Shown: positions 1,600 to 29,520 of the stretch, one piece after another | Layout: every line of letters begins with the position of its first letter | How positions within the stretch are numbered: position 1 is the stretch's first letter | From: Anaeromyxobacter sp. | Lineage (GTDB): Bacteria; Myxococcota; Myxococcia; Myxococcales; Anaeromyxobacteraceae | Direction of reading: 5' to 3' | Length of the DNA: 64,000 nt | Assembly (NCBI GenBank): GCA_049840735.1 | Contig: JASGJN010000026.1 | Coordinates: 320,001 to 384,000 of the forward strand | Made by a program: the position numbers and the translations under genes | The notes under the pieces: model-generated | What the model was told of the DNA's origin: nothing | The model's input: only the letters and a program-made list of their open reading frames with translations | Database searches by the model: none

Positions 1600-4357
1600 C
1601 ATGCGCCGCCTCGCCCTGCTCGCCGTCACGCTCGCCCTGGCCTGCACCGGCTCGGGGAAGGGCCCACCCGACACGTCCCACCAGCCCGGGGACGAGGTGT
1701 TCGTCTCGACCGCGCCCGGCGGCGGCGTGGGGGGCGACGGCACCGTGCCGCCCGCGGCCGAGCCCGGCACCGCCGGCCCCTCAGGCCCGTCCGGCCCGTC
1801 CGGCGACGGCGCCGGCACGCGGGCGCTGGTGGAGGCCGACGTCTACGCCCGGCGCGGCGCGCTGGTCTACGTGCAGAACACCTACCGCGGGCTGCAGGTG
1901 GTGGACCTGGCCGACCCGGCCCACCCGCGCCTGCGCGGGCAGCTGCCGCTCACCGGGACGCCGGTGGGGCTGTACCTGGTGGGCGACGTGGCGCTGGTCA
2001 CCGCCTCGGACGTGCTCCGCTGGCTGCCCTCCGAAGGCGACGCGCCGGCCCAGGCCAGCTACGGCGCCCGGCTCTGGGCGGTGGACATCTCCGACCCCGA
2101 CCACCCCGCGCTCCTCTCGGAGCAGCCGGTGGCGGGCGCCATCACCGACTCGCGGCTGGTGGGGGACGCGCTCTACGTGGTGAGCCGCAACCTGCCGTAC
2201 TGGTGCCTCACGCCCATGGCCGGCGACGTGGCCGGCAGGCCCTGGCCTGCGGCCGACCAGGTCACGGTGGCCAGCTTCGACGTGTCGTCGCCGGCGGCGC
2301 CGCGGCCGGTGGATCACCTCGACTTCGCGCAGTCCGGCTGGTCGATGCACGTCCACGTCACCGCCGAGCGGATCACCGTGGCCGGGTCCGGCTGGGAGGC
2401 GGGGAACGACGCGGGCGTGACCCAGCTCACGGCAGTGGACATCTCGGACCCGGCCGGCCGGCTGGTCGAGGGCGCGCGGATCACGGTGGCGGGGCAGGTG
2501 CAGGACCGCTGGGCGCTCGACCTCGACGCGGCCACCGGCACCTTCCGCGTGGTCACCGCCGACCAGTGGTCGAGCGGCGCCCGGCTGCACGTCCTGGCCT
2601 GGGCGGCGCCGGACCAGGTGGCGCCGCTGGGCGGGCTCGACCTGGACGTGCCGGAGCGGGTCACCGCCGCGCGCTTCGACGGCGCCCGCGCCTACGTGGT
2701 GACCGCGCTGGCCATCGATCCGCTCTGGGTGGTGGACCTGGCCGACCCGGCGCAGCCGGCGCTGGCCGGGCACCTCGAGATGCCGGGGCAGCTCGACTAC
2801 CTGGTCCCGCGCGGCGACCGGCTGCTGGCGCTGGGGCACGGCGGCACCGGGGCCGGCTTCCAGCTCCACGTCTCGCTGCTGGACGTGGCCGACCCGGCCC
2901 ACCCGGCGCTGCTGGCGCGCCGCGTCCTCTCGCCGGACTGGGCCTTCGTGCCGGCCTCGCCGGACGATCTCCAGAAGGCCTTCCAGGTGCTGGACGAGCA
3001 GGGGCTGATCCTCCTGCCCTATCAAGGCTACGACCGCGAGACCTGGAGCTGGTCGGGCGGCACGCAGCTGTTCAGCTTCACGCGCGACACGCTGGTGCAG
3101 GAGGGCTTCGTGGCCCACCTGGGCGATCTCAAGCGCGCCTTCCCGACCGACGCCGCCGGCGTGCTGGGCGCCTTCTCCGACCAGGCGCTCCAGACCATCG
3201 ACGCCCGCGACCGCGCCCACCCGGTGCAGCTGGGGCAGGTCGACCTGGCGCGGCCGGTGTGGGACCTGATCGTCTCCGGCGACCGGACCCTGGAGCTCTC
3301 CGGGCTGCCGTGGTGGGGCGGCATGACCGAGCTGGCGGTGACGCCGGCGGCCAATCCGGAGGGCGCGCCCAGCTGGCGGACGCCGCTGGCGGCCTGGTGG
3401 ACGCGGCTGCTGAAGGTGGACGAGGTGGGCTGGGTGGTGGGCAGCGCGCCATACGACGGCACCGGGCAGGGCCAGACCTTCGTCCAGGCGGTGGACCTCT
3501 CCGGCGACGCGCCGCGGCTGGCCGGGCGGCTGGAGCTGGGCAGCAGCTCCGGCTACTGGTACGGCGACCCGGCGCAGGTGGGCCGGGCGCTGGTGGTGCC
3601 GGAGGTGACCTGGGACGGCGCCTCCGGCTACGACGCCACCTTCTCGGTGGTGGACCTGTCCAGCCCCGACGCGCCGGCCGTGGTCTCCGAGGTGGCGCTG
3701 CCGGTCCACGACTGGATGGGCGGGGTGACCGGGATCGGCCACACCGCCTGGTTCTGGCACTACGACTGGGCCGAGCCGTACACCACGGTGCGGTACGCGC
3801 TGGGCCGGCTGGACCTGGCCGACCCCGCGCACCCGGTGCTCCTGCCGGAGGTGAACGTTCCGGGCTGGTTCTTCTCGGCCTCCGACGACGGACAGCGGGT
3901 CTACACGCAGGAGTACGAGTGGGACGGCGCGGAGGCGCGCATCCGGCTGCACGCGCTGGAGCTGACCGACCACGGCACCGCCCGGCTGATCGGGTCGGTG
4001 GCCATCCCGGGCTGGACCACCAACGCCGTGCGCGTGGGGCAGCACGCGTACCTGACCGGCTGGCGGAGCGGCGGCGAGGCCGTGCTGTACGTGATCGACC
4101 TGGACGCGATGGCGCTGGTGGCGCAGGTGCCGATCCAGGCCAGCTGGATGTGGGCGATCGGCTCTGGCGGCGGGAAGCTCTTCCTGGCCACCGGGTGGCC
4201 GGCGCCCTCGGTGCTGGTGGTGGGGATCGACGACCCCGCGCACCCGGTGGTGGAGCAGACGGTGCCCACCAGCGGCTACCAGTACCGCGTCGAGGTCGGC
4301 GCCGGAGCCGCGTACCTGCCGGCGGGCGCCTACGGCGTGCTGCGGATCCCGCTCTGA
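1600..4357 (+). CDS. Secreted beta-propeller domain lipoprotein
   Basis: Lipobox LALAC, VEADV motif, repeated VVDLADPAHP blades, TALAIDPLWVVDL...GHLEMPGQLDYL motif. Confidence 0.8.
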
Positions 4358-4483
4358 GCGGGTGGCGGGGCCCGCCGCTCGCCGCCCGTCGGAGGGCGAG
4401 CGGCCCCGTGGTTGCGGCGGCGTGTCCGTGACCCTGCGCCGCCTGGCCGCGGGGGACATCCCTGACCGCCCCGCGGCCTGGGC

Positions 4484-6487
4484 GTGTCCCGCACCCAGCG
4501 TCTCGCGCGGTCGCGCGCCGACGTGCTAGAGCCGGAGGGTTCGCCCAAGGCAGCGGAGGGGACCCTGCTCATCCCGGTTGGACTCGACGAGGCCCGGCTC
4601 TCGCGCCTGCCCTGGGCGTCGATCGTCATCCTGGCGCTGAACGTGCTGGTGCTGGCGTGGCAGGGGCTGGCCTCCAACGACCGCGCGCTGGAGGCGAGCG
4701 CGCGCGCGCTGGTGGAGTACTGGTCCGAGCACCCGCAGCTGGAGACGCCGGCCTCGCTGCAGGGCACCCCCTACGACCGCGAGTGGATGCTGTGGGCGAC
4801 GGACACCTCGCCGGACGAGGTGGGCAGCAGCGCGGGCGATCCGGCCGAGCTGGAGGCGCTGGGCGAGGAGCTGGCGGCGGCGCGGGCGCGGGATCCCGAG
4901 GTGGCGTACGGCCTGGTGCCGGCGCGCGGGCTCTCGCAGCCGGGCTGGTTCACCGCCATGTTCCTGCACGGCGACCTCTTCCACCTGCTCGGGAACATGC
5001 TGATCTTCTGCCTGGTGGTGGGGCCGTTCCTGGAGGACGCCTGGGGCCTGGCCTTCTTCCTGGGCCTGTACCTCTGCGGCGGCCTGGCGGCCGGGGCGGC
5101 GCAGGTGGCGCAGGACGCGTCCTCGACCGTCCCCATCATCGGCGCGTCCGGGGCCATCTCCGCCTGCCTGGGGGCGTTCGCGCTGCGCTTCGCGCACCGC
5201 AAGGTGAGGATCTTCTACTGGTTCTGGTGGTTCATCCGCGGGACCTTCTTCATGCCGGCGTGGCTCTTCGCCTTCTTCGGCTTCACCATGGACCTGCTCA
5301 ACCTCCAGCTGAGCCGCGGCGGCTCGGGCGGCGGCGTCGCCTACGCCGCGCACGTGGGCGGGTTCCTGGCCGGGCTGGCGGTGGCGATGGTGGTGCGCGC
5401 CACGGGGCTCGACGCGAAGCTGGGGCGCGAGGGGGTCGGCAAGTGGGGGGCCAGCTTCGCCGCCTCGCGGGCGCAGGACGCGCTGGCGAGCGGCGACCTG
5501 TTCGCGGCGCGGCAGCGGCTGGAGGCGGCGGTGGACGCCAAGCCGCGCGACCTCGACGCGCTGCTGGAGCTGGCGCGGCTGGAGGCGAAGCGGTTCGACC
5601 GCGCGCGCGCCACCGAGCTGGTGGAGCGGGCGCTGGGGATGCAGCTCACGGCCGGGGATCGCGCCGGGGCCAAGGCGCTGCTGCTGGAGCTGGGCGGCTG
5701 GATCCAGCCCGAGCTGCTGCGCCCGGCCACCGCCTTCCGCGCGGCCGAGCTGGTCGCGGCGGAGGACCCTGGGCTGGCCGACCAGCTCGACGACGCCGCG
5801 GCCGCGGGCGGCGGCGCGGTGGGCGCCAAGGCGCTGGCGCGGATGCTGCGGCGCGCGCGGGCTGGCGCGCCGGAGCGCGCGCGGGCGCTGGCCGAGCGGC
5901 TGGTGGGGTTCCCGGGCGCGCCGCCCGAGCTGGTGGAGCAGGCGCGGGCGCTGCTCTCGCAGCTGGCGCCGCCGCCGCCGGAGGACCGCGCCATCTCGCT
6001 GGAGCTGGAGCTGCCGGCTGCGCCGCCGCCTCCGCCAGCGGCCGGAGCGCTGGGCCAGGGCCCGGTGCAGGTGCTGCACTGCCGGATCACCGGGCTGCTG
6101 CCGCAGGGGCTGGCGGTGGTGGACGGGACCGGGAGGGCCGGGGTGGTGGCGCTGGGGCGGGTGGCGGCGGTGGCCGCCGGGCTGGTGGAGGCCGCGCCCA
6201 CGCCGGCGGCGGCGTCCGCGCCCAGGCTGCTGCTGGACCTGCTGCTGGTGCCGGCGGAGGGGCACCCCGCCCGCACCGTGCTGCGCGTGCCCGCCCACGG
6301 GCTGGGCCTGCAGGCGCTCTACCCCGGGCTGGCGCCCGCCGACGCCTGGGCCCGGCTGGTGGAGGCGCTGGTGGCGGGCGGGGCCAGGCCGGTCCCGTCG
6401 CACGCCGCGGTGGCTGGCCGGCCCTTCGGACGCCACGCCGACGCGAGCGCCTTCGAGGCGGCAGCCTGGGGCCGCCCGCTGGCCTGA
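4484..6487 (+). CDS. Rhomboid family intramembrane serine protease with C-terminal helical/TPR extension
   Basis: MFLHGDLFHLLGNM, IGASGAIS and AYAAHVGG motifs; start uncertain. Confidence 0.85.
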   Translation: MSRTQRLARSRADVLEPEGSPKAAEGTLLIPVGLDEARLSRLPWASIVILALNVLVLAWQGLASNDRALEASARALVEYWSEHPQLETPASLQGTPYDREWMLWATDTSPDEVGSSAGDPAELEALGEELAAARARDPEVAYGLVPARGLSQPGWFTAMFLHGDLFHLLGNMLIFCLVVGPFLEDAWGLAFFLGLYLCGGLAAGAAQVAQDASSTVPIIGASGAISACLGAFALRFAHRKVRIFYWFWWFIRGTFFMPAWLFAFFGFTMDLLNLQLSRGGSGGGVAYAAHVGGFLAGLAVAMVVRATGLDAKLGREGVGKWGASFAASRAQDALASGDLFAARQRLEAAVDAKPRDLDALLELARLEAKRFDRARATELVERALGMQLTAGDRAGAKALLLELGGWIQPELLRPATAFRAAELVAAEDPGLADQLDDAAAAGGGAVGAKALARMLRRARAGAPERARALAERLVGFPGAPPELVEQARALLSQLAPPPPEDRAISLELELPAAPPPPPAAGALGQGPVQVLHCRITGLLPQGLAVVDGTGRAGVVALGRVAAVAAGLVEAAPTPAAASAPRLLLDLLLVPAEGHPARTVLRVPAHGLGLQALYPGLAPADAWARLVEALVAGGARPVPSHAAVAGRPFGRHADASAFEAAAWGRPLA

Positions 6488-25242: not shown

Positions 25243-26625
25243 ATGTCGCGGGCCGAGCTGGAAACGGTGCCACTCGAGATCGACACGCTGGTGGAGGCGC
25301 TGGATCAGGAGCGCGCGCGGTCGATCGCCGGGGTGGAGAGCGACCCAGGGCTCGTACGGCTGTATGCCGCCCACTCCAGGGTGGCCCACCGCCAGACGGT
25401 GACCGACCTGCGCGAGGCCGGGCAGGCGGCGCTGGCCGCCCGGGTGGCGGCGCTGCGGGCGGAGCGCGCCGCGGCCGAGCACGAGGAGCGCTGGCGGGCG
25501 CTGGAGGCGGCGGCGCACCAGCCGGGGCCGGACGGCGACGCGCCGCTGGCCGCGCTGGAGCTGGCGGTGCTGCGCGAGCCGGACCGGACCCGCCGGCTGG
25601 CGCTGGCGCGGGCCGCGGCGGACGCGCTGGAGCCGGCCGCGGCGGCGCGCGAGGCGGCGGTGGAGGCGCGCGCCCGGGCCGGCGCCGAGGTGGGCCTGGC
25701 GCCGGACTGGCGGGCGGTGGTGGAGGGCGACCAGCTGCTCGCGGCCAGCGACGACGCCTGGCGCGAGGTGCTCGGCTTCCGCGCCCGCCACGACCTGGGG
25801 CTGGCGCCGTCGCCGGGCGGGGACCTCACCCGCGGCGACCTGCTCTTCCTGCTGACGCTCTCGCGCTGGGACGGGCTGTTCCGCCCGGCGGCGCTGCGGG
25901 CCGCCGTCCACGCCACCGTCACCGCGCTGGGGCTGGACCTCTCCCGCCTCCGCATCGACGAGGGGACGCGCCCGGCGCAGTGGCCGGGGGTGCACGTGGT
26001 GGGCGCGCGGGTGGCCTGGCGCCCGCGGGGCGGGGCCGGGGACTGGCAGGACCTGCTGGCCGGCCTGCCGCGCGCGCTGGCCGCGACCCATGCCTCGCCG
26101 CACCGGCGCGAGCCGCTGCTGGGCCACGCGCTGGGGTGGCTGGTGGAGTCGCTGCTGCTCGAGCCGCGCTGGCTGGCGGACCACGCCGGCGTGGAGCGCA
26201 AGGTGGCGCCGGACCTGATCCGCGACCTGGCGCTGCGGCGCCTGTTCACGCTGCGTGCGCGGGCGGCCGCCTTCCGGATCGCGACCGAGGTGGAGCGCGG
26301 GCTCTCCGGCGCCGCCTGGCGCGAGGCCTACCGCGAGGCGCTCACCGCCGCCACCGGCGCGGCCTGGGAGGGCGTGCGCGCCGCGCGCGACGCGGACGGC
26401 GCGGCGCACGCCGCGGCGCTGGCCGGGGCGGGCGCCGGCGAAGCGCTCCGCCTGGCGGTGCGCGAGCAGCTGGACGAGGACTGGTGGCGCAACCCGCGGA
26501 CCGCCGCGTTCCTGGCCGGCCTGCTGGCCGGCGGCGCGCTGCCGGACCCTGAAGCCGGCGCGCCGCGCGAGCCGGCGCTGGCGGCGCAGGCCCTCGCGGC
26601 GAGGCTGGAGGGGAGCGCTCGCTAA
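25243..26625 (+). CDS. Hypothetical protein, probably a degenerate M3/oligoendopeptidase-like fold
   Basis: DEDWWRNPR motif and GG..DW..LL segment without HExxH; stop TAA formed at the element junction. Confidence 0.6.
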   Translation: MSRAELETVPLEIDTLVEALDQERARSIAGVESDPGLVRLYAAHSRVAHRQTVTDLREAGQAALAARVAALRAERAAAEHEERWRALEAAAHQPGPDGDAPLAALELAVLREPDRTRRLALARAAADALEPAAAAREAAVEARARAGAEVGLAPDWRAVVEGDQLLAASDDAWREVLGFRARHDLGLAPSPGGDLTRGDLLFLLTLSRWDGLFRPAALRAAVHATVTALGLDLSRLRIDEGTRPAQWPGVHVVGARVAWRPRGGAGDWQDLLAGLPRALAATHASPHRREPLLGHALGWLVESLLLEPRWLADHAGVERKVAPDLIRDLALRRLFTLRARAAAFRIATEVERGLSGAAWREAYREALTAATGAAWEGVRAARDADGAAHAAALAGAGAGEALRLAVREQLDEDWWRNPRTAAFLAGLLAGGALPDPEAGAPREPALAAQALAARLEGSAR

Positions 26626-28606
26626 GAGTTGTCCCACAATTCGCCAATCGGCGAAGCGTGGGCCGGGTCGGTTCGCCATCGGGCCCGCTCGGGCGTGGTC
26701 TGGCCGGAGCCAGCCTCATCCCGGGTTGGGCCCGTGGCCGTGCCGACGATTCGCCGAGCCACCGGTTTGCTTGCCGGTGTGGACGTCCGCCATGCGAAGG
26801 ACGGCTCGCGGGCGAAGAGGTCGGTTGACTCGGACCGGACGTCTTGCCGCCCGGGACAGCGAGGATCAAGAAGGTTTCCGATGGCGGCGCGGGCCTGCCG
26901 GGTGGCGTCGTAGTCGACGCGCGCCGTGGCTGGCTCGCCGGGCCGATCGAGGACGAGGAAGGCGCCGAGGACCGCGGAGACGGCGTCCCTGTCCCCTTCC
27001 AGCCCGCAGCGAGGGCAGCGGTGGACCCGGTCGGCGAGCGACTTCTCGACCCGGACGCCGCAGGGGCAGTGCTGGGAGAGGGCGGTGGTCTGCGTGGGGA
27101 TCCTGACCACGCCGCCAACGTTGCCAGCGACGGTTGCGGTGGCACGCGCCTCCCGGTCGATAGCCGCGAGCAGCGTCCCCGGCGTGAACGTGGCCACCCC
27201 GCGCCCCCAGGTGCGCGCCCAGGCGGTGATGGTCACGTCCTCGACGGCGAGCTGATAGCCGTGAGTGCGTACCACCTCGGCGGCGACCTGCCGGGCCCGG
27301 TCGCGCCGGGCCTGCGTCCACGACGACGCAGCGGCAGCCTGCTCAGCCCGGAGGAAGCGGTAGCGCTTCGAGAGCGTGTCCCGCCGGTAGGCCTGAAGCG
27401 GGACGCCGTCCGACCGCGCCAGCCGCGGGCCTCCAGGGATCACCTCGACCGGCGTGAGGCCGGCGGCGGCCCGCCGGCGGGCGCGCTTCTCCTGGCGCCT
27501 GGAGAGCCGGTACTGGGCCCGGTTCGCGGCCCGGCGCGACCGCTCCAGGGCCCGCTGCCTGCGCCGCTCACGGCGACTGCGGCCTCGGTCCCGCGCCTTG
27601 GCCTGACCGTCTAGCTCCACCCTGGTGAGCCGCAGGTCGCCCCCAGCCACCTGGGAGGCGATGGTCAGGTTGGACACGTTGACGTCTATCCCCGCCACGC
27701 GCTCCGCCTCGTCGTTGGCCGCAGCTTCCCGCCGTGCCTGCGCCGAAGGCGAGACGTACGGCTGGGCGAGGACCATCAGATGCGCCTCGTACCGCCAGCC
27801 ACCGGGCGCATGAGGCGACCGCGTACGCACCAGGTCGACCTTGTGCCAGCGGGCCGGGTCGGCCAGGTGATGGTCGAGGATGGGCTGGTTGCACGGCGCG
27901 GTGGGGAGGCGAACCGGCAGGACCAGGGCGCCTCCGGGGAGGCCGCTGAAGAGACCAGCGCCAGAGGCCCCTGATAGGACCACCAGTCAACGCGCCGATC
28001 GGCGGCCCCCGGGACCTGGAGGTGCCGCGGCTGGACGAAGTCGCCGCCGGGCCTGGTGTACCTGCCCCGGTGGCCTGCGAGGGAGCCGTGGAGCCGAAAG
28101 GTCTCCCATTTCCGCTCCCGGGTGTGTGACCGGGCCCGGCCAGGAAGCCGTGAGAAGTCGAACCAGCGCCCGACGCGGAGAAGTCCCTGCCGCTTGCCTT
28201 TCGCGTCCGGGAACAGGTGGCGCTCCACCGGCGTCCAGACCGAGTCGGCGAGGTGCATCGCCAGCGCCTTGGTGACGTTCCGGCGGAGGTGGGGCGCCGC
28301 GTCGAGGTGCGCGTAGGCCGCCTGCTCCAGCGCCTCGCGCGAGAGGCCGAGCCTGGCCCGGGTCTCGGAGGCGCTCCGGGCCCGCGCCTTCGTCGCCGCC
28401 CAGTAGGCCCGCACCCGGTCCCGCGCCGTCCGCTGGAGCGCGCGCCGGACCTGGTAGGCCCCGGAGAAGATACCTTCGAGCCGTCGTCGCTGCACCGGGT
28501 CGTGGAGGTCCAGGGCGAGCCGGAGCACCGACACCCCGTCCTCGCGCCGGCGGATCCAAGGCCGCTGCCGGTTCGGACCACGGGTTCGCTTGGCAGAGGC
28601 GCTCAC
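26622..28606 (-). CDS. tnpB: Large TnpB-like RuvC/zinc-ribbon nuclease (~660 aa); apparent frameshift at ~27951
   Basis: RuvC-I VAGIDVN, Arg-rich helix, RuvC-II LAVED, SQHCPCG..HRCPRCG zinc ribbon, RuvC-III DRDAVSA; N-half in ORF 27776..28753 joins at GPLALV|FSGLPGG. Confidence 0.85.
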
Positions 28607-28940
28607 CCGCTCATCGTGAACCCATGCCCTGACATCTTGTTCAGTGAGGGTTGGCTTCCGCCGGTGGCCCGGGAAACGAGGCCACCGTGTTGTCCTCGCC
28701 GATGGCGGATACCGGGGAGTCCTGGGTCTTCGTATCCCGGTCTTCCGCCACAACCGGGTCGTCCGCGACGCCGCCTGGCGCCGTCACCGCAAACAGCGCG
28801 CCCGGGTCGAGCACGTCCTCGCTCGCCTCAAAGACTGGCGCGTCCTCCGGGACCACCGGCGGCGGGGGCGACACCTCGGATCCACGGTCGCCGCCGTGGC
28901 CTTCCTCTACAACCTCAAGCTCGAATTTCGGGACAGCTCC
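26625..28940. mobile_element. Non-autonomous IS5-family-derived element carrying a large TnpB-like nuclease
   Basis: TIRs AGAGTTGTCCCACAATTCG (26625-26643) and CGAATTTCGGGACAGCTCC (28922-28940), 15/19 inverted identity; flanking TA at 26623-24 and 28941-42. Confidence 0.8.
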
Positions 28941-28943
28941 TAG
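28644..28943 (+). pseudogene. C-terminal fragment of an IS5-family DDE transposase (DDE_Tnp_4, Harbinger-like)
   Basis: VLADGGYRG, HRKQRARVEHVLARLKDWRVLRD and AFLYNL motifs; runs through the right TIR; N-terminal half absent. Confidence 0.8.
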
Positions 28944-29284
28944 CTCTTCTTCCGCAGCGCCCGGAGGATCTTCTCCTTCGTGCGGGAGGGCTGCGGGGCG
29001 GCGCGGCGCGCGACCGGCGCCGGGGCGGCCTCGGCCTGCGCCTCGCGGCGGCGCAGGAAGGCCTCGATCTCGTAGGAGAGCAGCTCGATCTCGAGGTCGC
29101 TGCGGGGCGGCGCGGCCCGCTCCAGCGGCGCCGCGCGCGGCAGCGCAGCGCCCAGGCGCATGCGCATCACGCGCTCCTCGTCCGCGGCCAGCTCCCGGAC
29201 CGGACCGCGCCGGAGCGCGGCCTGGGCGGCTGCCTCCGTCACGACCGCGGTGGTCCCCGTCTTCTTCGTCTGCATGGTCCACAT
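28940..29284 (-). CDS. Hypothetical protein
   Basis: Host-like ORF (EERVMRMRLG...KEKILRALRKKS); stop at the element junction. Confidence 0.7.
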   Translation of the reverse strand: MWTMQTKKTGTTAVVTEAAAQAALRRGPVRELAADEERVMRMRLGAALPRAAPLERAAPPRSDLEIELLSYEIEAFLRRREAQAEAAPAPVARRAAPQPSRTKEKILRALRKKS

Positions 29285-29520
29285 GGTAGGGGCCAGGGCT
29301 GACCTGTCCATTTTTCGCCGGCCCGCGACCGCGTCCCGCCCGGGCGGCCAAGCGCCCGTCCGGCAAGGGCTTTCCGTCTCACCCGGCCGGCGGCGATATC
29401 ACACACCCGTCCCCGGCCGATGTCTTGCGGGGCGGCTCGTCGGCGGTAAGGCTCCAGGGCGGCGGGGCCCGCCTGGCAGCGCGGCTGCCGGGCCGCGCAC
29501 CGCGGCGGGAGGCGCGATCC

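What the first reader, a model, noticed from the sequence alone, without database searches (positions are those of the whole stretch)
26622..28943. TnpB-like nuclease housed in an IS5-type DDE transposon with terminal inverted repeats
Seen in sequence: a 2316-bp segment bounded by imperfect 19-bp inverted repeats (AGAGTTGTCCCACAATTCG versus the reverse complement GGAGCTGTCCCGAAATTCG) and a TA duplication; a CTA duplication with a 1-bp offset is also possible. It holds two divergent ORFs, a RuvC/zinc-ribbon nuclease and a DDE transposase remnant (ADGGYRG; RARVEH..ARLK.W..L; YNL). Established: TnpB normally travels with Y1 HUH TnpA (IS200/IS605) or serine recombinases (IS607), whose elements lack TIRs and target duplications, while TIRs and T/A-centred 2-4 bp duplications are IS5-family traits. 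Inference: a cut-and-paste DDE element has captured an RNA-guided nuclease for homing or retention. Large TnpB surveys may already list DDE-linked clades; I cannot check that here.
Basis: partly seen in the sequence, partly recalled or inferred. Interest (0 to 1): 0.92.

Follow-up and report, generated by a model that had tools for sequence, protein, structure and literature searches.

The report
Decayed IS5-type transposon carrying TnpB
This is a broken copy of a jumping gene that pairs a cut-and-paste transposase with an RNA-guided nuclease and its guide RNA, a pairing that surveys have already listed but whose working is untested.

Summary
Window 26622-28943 is one copy of a mobile element with ends C-TA-AGAGTTGTCCC...GGGACAGCTCC-TA-G. 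It holds a TnpB-like gene on the minus strand and the last 99 codons of an IS5/Harbinger-type DDE transposase gene on the plus strand. Both genes are dead here: the nuclease gene has a 2-nt frameshift near 27953, and the transposase gene lacks about 510 bp, its first ~170 codons included.

Relatives carry the complete element of about 2.8 kb. It has an intact 262-aa DDE gene, divergent from a ~650-aa TnpB-like gene, between the same inverted ends. A divergent DDE gene was found in 50 of 57 loci with enough upstream DNA. Two clean empty sites in a sister genome show insertion at CTAG with TA duplicated.

The last ~290 nt on the nuclease side encode a structured RNA with strong covariation (30 of 44 pairs compensatory). 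It reads as an omega-RNA scaffold that runs through the inverted repeat into the flank.

The kind is in print: DDE-linked TnpB branches (Altae-Tran 2023), and ISL2/IS1031-linked ones according to a 2026 review. I file this as a new member of a known kind. Function (re-cutting of the restored CTAG donor site) is inferred, not shown.

The parts
26622..26624 (.). Left junction: flank C (26622) plus the left copy of the duplicated TA (26623-26624). On the minus strand it supplies the TAG that ends the nuclease reading frame.
   Evidence: Every copy reads CTA here. Empty sites of two related copies read a single CTAG.
26625..26646 (.). Terminal inverted repeat on the nuclease side (AGAGTTGTCCCACAATTCG...).
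   Evidence: Boundary of five copies in this genome. Family consensus CTAAGAGnTGTCCCGnAA; the base next to TA is invariant in 55 of 55 distinct ends.
26625..26853 (-). Omega-RNA-like structured RNA region. Nine helices map to about 26853-26667, followed by a terminal hairpin in which an upstream UGUCCC-like stretch pairs with the GGGAC of the inverted repeat. The last ~10 nt are unpaired and run into the flank.
   Evidence: RNAalifold on 60 distinct tails gives 44 pairs, 30 with compensatory changes. 96.1% of cells are paired against 84.7% when shuffled, with 0 of 500 shuffles reaching any observed measure, and 31-43% when slid. No codon periodicity here, unlike upstream. Terminal stem found in 39 of 60 single folds. 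No Rfam family matches.
26625..27953 (-). TnpB-like gene, C-terminal segment (profile positions 214-658). Holds RuvC-I GIDVN, RuvC-II LAVEDV, zinc ribbon CPCG...CPRCG and RuvC-III GDRD. The last ~80 codons overlap the RNA region.
   Evidence: D353, E501, D586 and four Cys are invariant in 32 homologues. The fold matches Cas12f/TnpB/Cas12m.
27947..28606 (-). TnpB-like gene, N-terminal segment (profile positions 1-216), in another frame. The break is a 2-nt (TC) insertion at about 27953-27954. The likely start is the GTG at 28606-28604.
   Evidence: The same gene is one open frame in copy C20.
28595..28691 (.). Deletion scar. These 97 bp stand where complete relatives have about 608 bp (the intergenic region and the first ~170 codons of the transposase gene).
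   Evidence: blastn against L021, L026 and L028. Complete arrangement in L020.
28680..28940 (+). 3' remnant of the IS5/Harbinger-type DDE transposase gene (second D in ADGGY, E in RARVEH). The first catalytic D and the HTH are missing. The ORF as listed is 28644-28943.
   Evidence: Pfam DDE_Tnp_1 4.6e-6 and DDE_Tnp_4 5.8e-5. 81% identical to the end of the intact 262-aa gene of L020.
28922..28940 (.). Terminal inverted repeat on the transposase side (CGAATTTCGGGACAGCTCC).
28941..28943 (.). Right junction: the right copy of the duplicated TA (28941-28942) plus flank G (28943). It supplies the TAG stop of the transposase remnant.

Best explanation
Window 26623-28942 is a decayed, non-autonomous copy of an insertion-sequence family of about 2.8 kb. 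The complete form carries three things between ~20-bp terminal inverted repeats: a ~260-aa IS5/PIF-Harbinger-type DDE transposase (HTH plus DDE_Tnp_1/DDE_Tnp_4), a divergent ~650-aa TnpB-like RuvC/zinc-ribbon nuclease, and a structured guide-RNA scaffold of about 290 nt.

Shown here:
- The element inserts at the palindrome C|TA|G and duplicates TA.
- The two genes travel together and co-diverge.
- The RNA structure covaries, is strand-specific, and runs through the nuclease-side inverted repeat to the very end of the element.
- The nuclease keeps its D-E-D triad across the family.
- This copy has lost the transposase 5' half and carries a frameshift in the nuclease gene.
- This genome holds only deletion derivatives (2322, 2250, 1547, 1047 and 553 bp) and no complete transposase gene was found in the assembly.

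Inferred:
- The DDE enzyme moves the element by cut-and-paste.
- Transcription through the nuclease-side end yields an omega-RNA whose 3' guide is the flanking host DNA.
- When the element excises and the donor is resealed to CTAG+flank, the nuclease-RNA complex cuts that empty site, with the restored CTAG, or part of it, acting as the adjacent motif. Recombination with an occupied sister copy then restores the element.
- The occupied site escapes because the inverted repeat puts T, not C, before TA (TTAG, not CTAG).
For: Copies and ends.

Complete relative: in L020 the DDE gene (789 bp) and the nuclease gene (1941 bp) fill the 2794-bp element.

Association: 50 of 57 loci with at least 900 bp upstream carry a divergent DDE gene, 26 of them as one stretch of 200 aa or more. 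41 loci have both ends, and 30 of those are 2720-2820 bp long. Pairwise identities of the two genes correlate over 23 loci (Mantel r 0.67, 0 of 2000 permutations reach it).

Target: empty sites read ...ctcggtccgcg[CTAG]aacctcc and ...gagcagg[CTAG]gatgcccc, against occupied CTA-element-TAG.

Nuclease: Pfam TNB domain. Foldseek best hits are Cas12f, ISFba1 and ISDra2 TnpB, Cas12m, Cas12k and Fanzor2 (best E 4e-7, probability 1.0). D353, E501, D586 and four Cys are invariant in 32 sequences.

RNA. G-U pairs, such as columns 157-289 with UG in 58 of 60 sequences, fit only the nuclease-sense strand.

End asymmetry: T before TA in 55 of 55 distinct nuclease-side ends. On the transposase side the equivalent base is A in 39, G in 8 and C in 1 of 48.

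Precedent for restorative homing, and for TIR plus TSD inside a Fanzor1 guide RNA: passages read in PMC13565253 and PMC10711439.
Against: - No RNA, cleavage or transposition data exist for this family; no sequencing run could be listed.
- The adjacent motif is a guess. The whole nuclease-side terminus (positions 4-6) is more conserved than the other end, so the invariant T may reflect RNA-scaffold constraint rather than self-avoidance.
- Cut-and-paste excision already leaves a break, so the benefit of a homing nuclease is less obvious than for IS200/IS605. The 2026 review makes this point.
- Two of four interpretable sister sites read CTAC, not CTAG.
- The protein scores far below curated TnpB thresholds (27.5 against 100 bits).
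- The structure model is mediocre (pLDDT 59).
- The loci were collected by nuclease homology, and some are duplicates of each other, so the counts are not independent.
Confidence: 0.8

Rival explanations
1. Chance nesting: a tnpB-only IS200/IS605-type (IS1341-like) element landed inside an IS5 remnant, and the two are unrelated.
For: In this window only a transposase remnant is left and the nuclease gene fills the interior. Most TnpBs are linked to Y1 or serine recombinases (passages in PMC13565253).
Against: The same two-gene arrangement with the same ends is seen in 50 of 57 loci and is bounded in 41. The genes co-diverge. The RNA scaffold runs into the inverted repeat itself, so there is no separate IS605-type end. 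The complete element has room for only the two genes.
Confidence: 0.02
2. The nuclease-RNA pair steers where the DDE transposase inserts (RNA-guided transposition, in the manner of Cas12k elements) instead of cutting empty donor sites.
For: The nuclease and transposase are strictly linked. Cas12k is among the fold matches.
Against: Insertions sit at a fixed tetranucleotide, CTAG, with unrelated flanks. This is the pattern of protein-determined target choice in IS5/PHIS elements (PMC4482050, passages). The RuvC triad is intact, unlike Cas12k as I recall it. No TnsC/TniQ-like genes fit in 2.8 kb.
Confidence: 0.05
3. The nuclease-like protein and RNA regulate the element itself (RNA-guided repression of the transposase or of nearby genes, as in TldR-type exapted TnpBs), without DNA cutting.
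For: The genes are divergent and share a short intergenic region. Exapted TnpB regulators exist (recalled; not read here).
Against: The catalytic D-E-D and the zinc ribbon are invariant. The guide position lies outside the element, not facing its promoter. The family is multi-copy and patchy like an active mobile element.
Confidence: 0.06
4. The conserved structure is not a guide RNA but a DNA- or mRNA-level cis element, for example subterminal transposase-binding repeats or an mRNA 3' stabiliser.
For: The TGTCCC/GGGACA subterminal inverted repeat could be a second transposase-binding site. No expression data exist.
Against: Nine helices over ~190 nt carry compensatory changes and strand-specific G-U pairs. 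The position and size match omega-RNA scaffolds of TnpB and Fanzor (passages). The transposase side has no comparable structure beyond the ~20-bp repeat.
Confidence: 0.05

Closest known systems
DDE-transposase-associated TnpB branches (DDE-1 to DDE-6) of Altae-Tran et al. 2023, PNAS (PMC10691335). Partners are named ISL2, IS630 and IS1031 in the 2026 review PMC13565253.
   Same: A TnpB-family gene sits within 1 kb of a DDE transposase. The element has inverted terminal repeats. The nuclease 3' end lies within ~250 bp of the element end. Solo or deleted forms keep the same ends. [quoted passage not shown]
   Different: I could not see their figure 4, tables or GenBank files, so I cannot tell which branch, if any, holds this family. 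The accessible text says nothing on the target site, the RNA structure or this ~650-aa size.
IS200/IS605 TnpB with its omega/reRNA (ISDra2, ISFba1; solved structures 8exa, 8h1j, 8iaz)
   Same: RuvC plus zinc-ribbon fold. The D-E-D triad is present. The guide-RNA scaffold overlaps the 3' end of the gene and ends at the element boundary, so the guide would be flanking DNA.
   Different: The partner is a DDE enzyme, not a Y1 HUH one. The element has inverted repeats and a TA duplication. The protein is about 250 aa longer. Sequence similarity is below curated thresholds and nearly undetectable against PDB sequences (E 0.015). No Rfam match.
Fanzor1 in eukaryotic and viral DDE transposons (e.g. 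the SfAV element in PMC10711439)
   Same: An RNA-guided nuclease sits inside a cut-and-paste element, and its guide RNA includes the inverted repeat and abuts the target-site duplication (figure legend read).
   Different: This one is bacterial. There is no sign of direct descent. Fanzor2, not Fanzor1, appears among the fold matches, and only weakly.
IS5 family / PHIS superfamily transposons (ISL2, IS1031, IS427 groups; eukaryotic ISL2EU A|AT|T and NuwaII C|TNA|G)
   Same: A ~260-aa HTH plus DDE_Tnp_1/DDE_Tnp_4 transposase. Short inverted repeats. A palindromic target with a 2-3-bp central duplication (PMC4482050, passages). The gene runs into the repeat.
   Different: It carries a 2-kb nuclease-plus-RNA module. 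It scores below NCBI's curated IS5 cut-offs (47.6 against 140 bits). Assignment to a subgroup was not tested.
IS630-linked TnpBs (DDE-6)
   Same: TA duplication, with CTAG as the classic IS630 target (recalled). Symmetrical ends.
   Different: The transposase here is of IS5/Harbinger type. IS630 scores only E 0.063, and only on the HTH.

Membership tests
TnpB/Cas12 superfamily (RNA-guided RuvC nucleases) | RuvC fold with a D-E-D catalytic triad | tested here: met
   Foldseek best hits are Cas12f, TnpB and Cas12m (E 4e-7 to 5e-4, probability 1.0). D353, E501 and D586 are invariant in 32 sequences. The GIDVN and DRD motifs align to a Cas12n chain. The model is mediocre (pLDDT 59).
TnpB/Cas12 superfamily (RNA-guided RuvC nucleases) | Zinc-ribbon / target-nucleic-acid-binding domain between RuvC-II and RuvC-III | tested here: met
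   Pfam PF07282 scores 28.1 bits against a cut-off of 26.3 on the window ORF. It scores 25.1 bits, just below cut-off, on L020. The four Cys are invariant.
TnpB/Cas12 superfamily (RNA-guided RuvC nucleases) | Cognate structured guide RNA encoded at the 3' end and reaching the element boundary | tested here: met
   A covarying structure of 44 pairs ends at the inverted repeat. Expression and binding are not testable here.
TnpB as named by NCBIfam (guided_TnpB, IS200_TnpB, IS607_TnpB) | Score above the curated cut-off | tested here: not met
   27.5 against 100 bits, 13 against 425 and 26.6 against 350. Pfam OrfB_IS605 scores 19.5 against 30.5.
IS200/IS605 or IS607 element | Y1 HUH TnpA or a serine recombinase as partner; no inverted repeats and no target duplication | tested here: not met
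   The partner is a DDE gene. Inverted repeats and a TA duplication are present. The complete 2794-bp element is filled by its two genes.
IS5 family (PHIS-type DDE elements) | DDE_Tnp_1/DDE_Tnp_4 catalytic domain with an N-terminal HTH | tested here: met
   L020 protein: DDE_Tnp_1 41.7 bits (cut-off 23), DDE_Tnp_4 36.7 (cut-off 24.8), HTH_Tnp_4 22 (cut-off 27, below). Homologues carry PF13613, PF01609 and PF13359 in the precomputed annotation.
IS5 family (PHIS-type DDE elements) | Terminal inverted repeats and a short A/T-centred target duplication | tested here: met
   Repeats of ~20-22 bp. TA is duplicated in CTAG at two clean empty sites. Two further sister sites read CTAC.
IS5 family (PHIS-type DDE elements) | Score above NCBI's curated IS5 models; assignment to a subgroup (ISL2, IS1031, IS427) | tested here: not met
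   The best is transpos_IS5_4 at 47.6 against 140 bits. Subgroup not tested: no ISfinder reference sequences were at hand.
DDE-linked TnpB branches of Altae-Tran et al. 2023 | DDE gene within 1 kb of the TnpB; inverted terminal repeats; TnpB 3' end within 250 bp of the end | tested here: met
   The folded part of the protein ends about 240 nt before the element end.
DDE-linked TnpB branches of Altae-Tran et al. 2023 | Placement in one of the named branches DDE-1 to DDE-6 | not testable with these tools
   Their tree, tables S1/S2 and additional files 7, 10 and 11 are not among the supplementary text held.

The most novel reading that the evidence does not exclude
The nuclease uses the transposase's own target, the CTAG restored on excision, as its adjacent motif. 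The guide is read from the flank through the inverted repeat. A single terminal base of that repeat (T, giving TTAG) shields occupied sites. This would be a complete 'restorative homing' circuit for a bacterial cut-and-paste DDE element. Guide-RNA-only miniatures, such as the 553-bp copy on contig C13, would be kept in place in trans.
Probability: 0.3. Interest if true: 0.65.

Novelty: new member of a known kind. Interest (0 to 1): 0.42.

Why it matters
TnpB's known selfish role, re-cutting the scarless empty donor so that recombination restores the element, was worked out for IS200/IS605. Those elements excise without leaving a break. Why a cut-and-paste DDE element should keep a 2-kb nuclease-RNA module is an open point that the 2026 review raises.

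This family offers a compact test case:
- a defined palindromic target (CTAG);
- proven TA footprints and empty sites;
- a well-supported RNA scaffold that includes the inverted repeat;
- intact copies in culturable-type soil bacteria.

It also adds a large (~650 aa), highly conserved and sequence-divergent TnpB relative with a probably short G+C-neutral motif. That may interest those who collect compact genome editors. For the window itself the result is ordinary: a dead transposon copy between two convergent genes.

Tried and rejected
1. Exact empty site for the window's own copy. Relatives (18 genomes of the same genus, 72-77% identical flanks) have the two flanking genes adjacent without the element, but with 25-170 bp of unalignable spacer. 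Synteny only.

2. Empty sites for L020 and L022: flanks too diverged or rearranged. L023: flanks on different contigs. L019: right flank repetitive.

3. L021 and L026: the sister sites read CTAC before the right flank, and L021 also has a 74-bp indel. I read these as sites that were not yet CTAG or have since mutated. I cannot exclude something systematic.

4. Rfam scan of 26300-29300 at E up to 1: no match.

5. Public sequencing runs: none was listed, and no RNA holder is listed. So there is no expression test, and read laying was not used.

6. Inverted-repeat statistics within the window: uninformative in this G+C-rich DNA.

7. Search for a complete transposase gene in this genome with the 99-aa remnant: only the remnants were found. 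The assembly is 94% complete in 26 contigs, so absence is not shown.

8. PDB sequence search with the family profile: one marginal hit, E 0.015.

9. Which of the published DDE branches this is: not decidable from the text held.

10. Programmed frameshift in the transposase gene: rejected, because the breaks lie at different codons in different loci.

11. Earlier notes of this scan: none for this place or this protein.


Full report
**What is in the window**

Positions 26622-28943 read CTA-AGAGTTGTCCCACAATTCG ... CGAATTTCGGGACAGCTCC-TAG.

On the minus strand lie two overlapping ORFs, 26622-27983 and 27776-28753. Together they encode one TnpB-like protein. The first carries GIDVN, LAVEDV, CPCG...CPRCG and GDRD. 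It passes Pfam's Cas12f1-like TNB domain (28.1 against 26.3 bits) and scores weakly on OrfB_IS605.

On the plus strand, 28644-28943 encodes 99 residues that match the last part of DDE_Tnp_1 (27.0 against 23 bits) and DDE_Tnp_4 (23.2 against 24.8).

Neither flanking ORF (ending at 26625 on the plus strand; 28940-29311 on the minus strand) has a Pfam match.

**The copy is broken twice**

A second copy on contig C20 (88% identical) has the nuclease gene as one open frame of 730 codons. Against it, the window copy has a 2-nt TC insertion at about 27953-27954. The family profile matches 28606-27947 (positions 1-216) and 27953-26625 (positions 214-658) in different frames.

Against complete relatives, 97 bp of the window (28595-28691) replace about 608 bp. 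The intergenic region and the first ~170 codons of the transposase gene are missing.

**It is a repeated, bounded element in this genome**

DNA search of the genome finds copies that end exactly at the same two sequences:

| Contig | Length | Note |
|---|---|---|
| C26 (the window) | 2322 bp | |
| C20 | 2250 bp | right end degenerate |
| C16 | 1547 bp | internal deletion |
| C22 | 1047 bp | |
| C13 | 553 bp | |

There is also a scrambled piece on C2.

The 553-bp copy keeps the first 269 nt of the nuclease side and a piece that reads like the HTH part of the transposase gene. That part is missing in the window. So a complete ancestor once existed in this lineage.

No complete transposase gene was found with the 99-aa remnant. 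The assembly is 94% complete in 26 contigs.

Within the window alone the inverted repeat is not remarkable. One search lists 105 inverted pairs, and the terminal pair is not among the 25 longest. The copy boundaries are what make it real.

**The complete element in relatives**

The intact protein has 982 database relatives at E up to 0.001 among the 8000 candidates scored. The best 120 are 62-100% identical and mostly about 600-780 aa (576-776). Many sit on contigs of 2-3.5 kb. The few that carry names are from Anaeromyxobacter, Anaeromyxobacteraceae, Kofleriaceae, a Betaproteobacteria MAG and Gemmatimonadaceae. A profile search of 1.84 billion cluster representatives gives 1449 hits at E up to 0.001, and 232 at 1e-30.

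I collected 11 loci from genomes. From metagenomes, 80 of 107 were kept.

In L020 a 262-aa DDE gene (3175-3963, minus) faces a 646-aa nuclease gene (4028-5968, plus). Together they fill a 2794-bp element.

The DDE protein matches DDE_Tnp_1 (41.7 bits), DDE_Tnp_4 (36.7) and, weakly, HTH_Tnp_4. Its best NCBIfam model is an IS5 model, at 47.6 bits against a cut-off of 140. Its homologues are ~250-aa proteins with PF13613, PF01609 and PF13359.

- Of 57 loci with at least 900 bp upstream of the nuclease gene, 50 have the divergent DDE gene within 1.6 kb.
- In 26 of those 50 the match is a single stretch of 200 aa or more. The rest are broken at varying codons.
- The seven without are L019 (the gene lies further off, behind an insertion), L022, L023 and L027 (deletion derivatives), and L081, L112 and L116.
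- In 41 loci both ends were found, and 30 of these elements are 2720-2820 bp long.
- Over 23 loci with both genes largely intact, pairwise identities of the two proteins correlate (Mantel r 0.67; 0 of 2000 permutations reach it).

The loci were found through the nuclease, and some are near-duplicates, so these counts are not independent samples.

**Ends and target**

All ends read CTA...TAG, with no further duplication beyond them. The family consensus is CTAAGAGnTGTCCCGnAA.

Two sister genomes, G009 and G212, have flanks 93-97% identical and hold copies at different places. That gave occupied/empty pairs:

| Copy | Occupied | Sister genome |
|---|---|---|
| L018 | ...ctcggtccgcg-CTA[element]TAG-aacctcc | ...ctcggtccgcg[CTAG]aacctcc |
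| L027 | ...gaccaggg-CTA[element]TAG-gatgcccc | ...gagcagg[CTAG]gatgcccc |

The 3-bp alternative falls.

Two other pairs (L021, L026) have CTAC in the sister genome, and L021 also has a 74-bp indel beside it. Three more gave nothing usable.

A palindromic target with a small central duplication is the habit of this transposase superfamily: ISL2EU at A|AT|T, NuwaII at C|TNA|G (PMC4482050, passages read).

In the window, the CTAG was the shared stop of two convergent genes. After insertion both keep a stop, TAA on the left and TAG on the right. Relatives have the two genes adjacent without the element.

**The nuclease**

AlphaFold2 on a 32-sequence alignment gives a mediocre model (pLDDT 59.1, pTM 0.46). 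The last 80 residues are disordered.

Foldseek against the PDB ranks Cas12f, Cas12m, ISFba1 and ISDra2 TnpB, Cas12k and Fanzor2 first. Best E is 4e-7 at probability 1.0, with TM scores of only 0.3-0.5.

D353, E501, D586 and four cysteines are invariant in the 32 sequences.

By sequence the protein is far from named TnpBs. NCBIfam guided_TnpB scores 27.5 against 100 bits, and the only PDB sequence hit is at E 0.015.

**The RNA**

The last ~290 nt on the nuclease side are more conserved in DNA than the protein is. On 60 distinct tails:

- RNAalifold predicts 44 pairs in nine helices, 30 of them with compensatory double changes. For example, columns 326-363 read UA 22, GC 21, CG 14.
- On the named structure, 96.1% of cells pair, against 84.7% after shuffling and 31-43% when the partner is slid. 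The covariation score is 0.372 against 0.155. None of 500 shuffles reaches any observed measure.
- G-U pairs fit only the nuclease-sense strand.
- Codon periodicity is present just upstream (entropy 0.75/0.71/1.20 at codon positions 1/2/3). It is absent in the structured part, for example 0.51/0.68/0.56.
- The helices map to window 26853-26667.
This appears in 39 of 60 single-sequence folds. It leaves about 10 nt, AnCUCU-UAG, unpaired at the very end.

This is the layout of a TnpB omega-RNA whose guide would be the flank. It recalls the Fanzor1 guide RNA that includes the TIR and abuts the TSD (PMC10711439, legend read). No Rfam family matches.

**Mechanism**

Shown:
- the architecture and its conservation;
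- the TA-in-CTAG footprint;
- the intact catalytic motifs;
- the strand-specific RNA structure reaching the end.

Inferred:
- cut-and-paste movement by the DDE enzyme;
- read-through transcription that makes a flank-derived guide;
- cleavage of the resealed donor (CTAG plus flank), followed by recombinational restoration, as established for IS200/IS605 TnpB (review passages).

A possible self/non-self rule: the nuclease-side repeat always ends in T before TA (55 of 55 distinct ends), so the occupied site reads TTAG. The transposase side varies (A 39, G 8, C 1 of 48). However, the whole nuclease-side tip is more conserved, and the RNA alone could explain that.

**Distribution**

In a draw of 301 genomes of the phylum, the nuclease was found in 3, all of one genus and counting this genome, with 4-5 matches each. 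Yet relatives 62-67% identical carry labels from other orders and phyla. The element is patchy and multi-copy, as expected of a horizontally moving element.

**What is known**

Altae-Tran et al. 2023 report six DDE-associated TnpB branches, all with inverted terminal repeats. The TnpB 3' end is mostly within 250 bp of the end, some solo TnpBs have the same ends, and several branches 'mobilize regularly' (PMC10691335, passages read). Their supplement notes a TA motif 8 bp from the predicted end in DDE-5. That would fit this family if the end was set at GTCCC, but I could not check it.

A 2026 review names ISL2, IS630 and IS1031 as the DDE partners. It discusses why such links are rare (PMC13565253, passages read).

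My searches of the held library found no experimental study of a prokaryotic DDE-linked TnpB. That holds only for those search terms and that library.

Earlier notes of this scan on other genomes describe TnpBs between IS6-, IS1595- and IS630-type ends, and point to the same paper.

**Verdict**

The window copy is a dead, non-autonomous relic, and the kind is already in print. The added value is the defined CTAG target with empty sites, the covariation-supported RNA that includes the inverted repeat, and a testable motif hypothesis.

Noticed in passing
window 26620-26626 and 28938-28945: The element sits exactly on a CTAG that served as the overlapping stop codon of two convergent genes. After insertion the left gene ends in TAA (TA plus the first base of the repeat). 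The right gene still ends in TAG (TA plus the last base of the repeat). Neither host gene is damaged.
   Followed up: partly
window 26622-26624 and 28941-28943; L020 3175-3177 and 5966-5968: Neither element gene has a stop codon of its own. Both reading frames run through the inverted repeat and end in a TAG made of the duplicated TA plus the flanking base of the CTAG target.
   Followed up: partly
own genome contig C13:617628-618180: A 553-bp miniature copy with both ends. It keeps the whole RNA region and a piece of the transposase HTH coding part, but no nuclease gene. It is a possible guide-RNA-only passenger.
   Followed up: partly
own genome contig C16:37990-38044 (locus L004): A second, diverged nuclease-side end (80% identical over 55 nt) abuts the right end of the C16 copy and shares its TA (..CTCC-TA-GGCGCTGTCCC..). 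An insertion seems to have gone into the CTAG formed at the edge of an older copy.
   Followed up: partly
L021 3106-3179 versus L119: Beside the L021 copy, the occupied genome has 74 extra bp with a G+C-rich hairpin-like inverted repeat, which the sister genome lacks. At this site and at the L026 site the sister genome reads CTAC, not CTAG.
   Followed up: no
L019 2268-4027: About 1.7 kb is inserted between the transposase and nuclease genes of an otherwise complete copy (element length 4488 bp). Its content was not examined.
   Followed up: no
L091 and L092 flanks: A 1860-bp derivative lies in two metagenome contigs with the same flanks. The flanks are inverted repeats of each other (GAGGGCCTCT / TTTAGAGGGC), as if the element had landed in a hairpin.
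   Followed up: no
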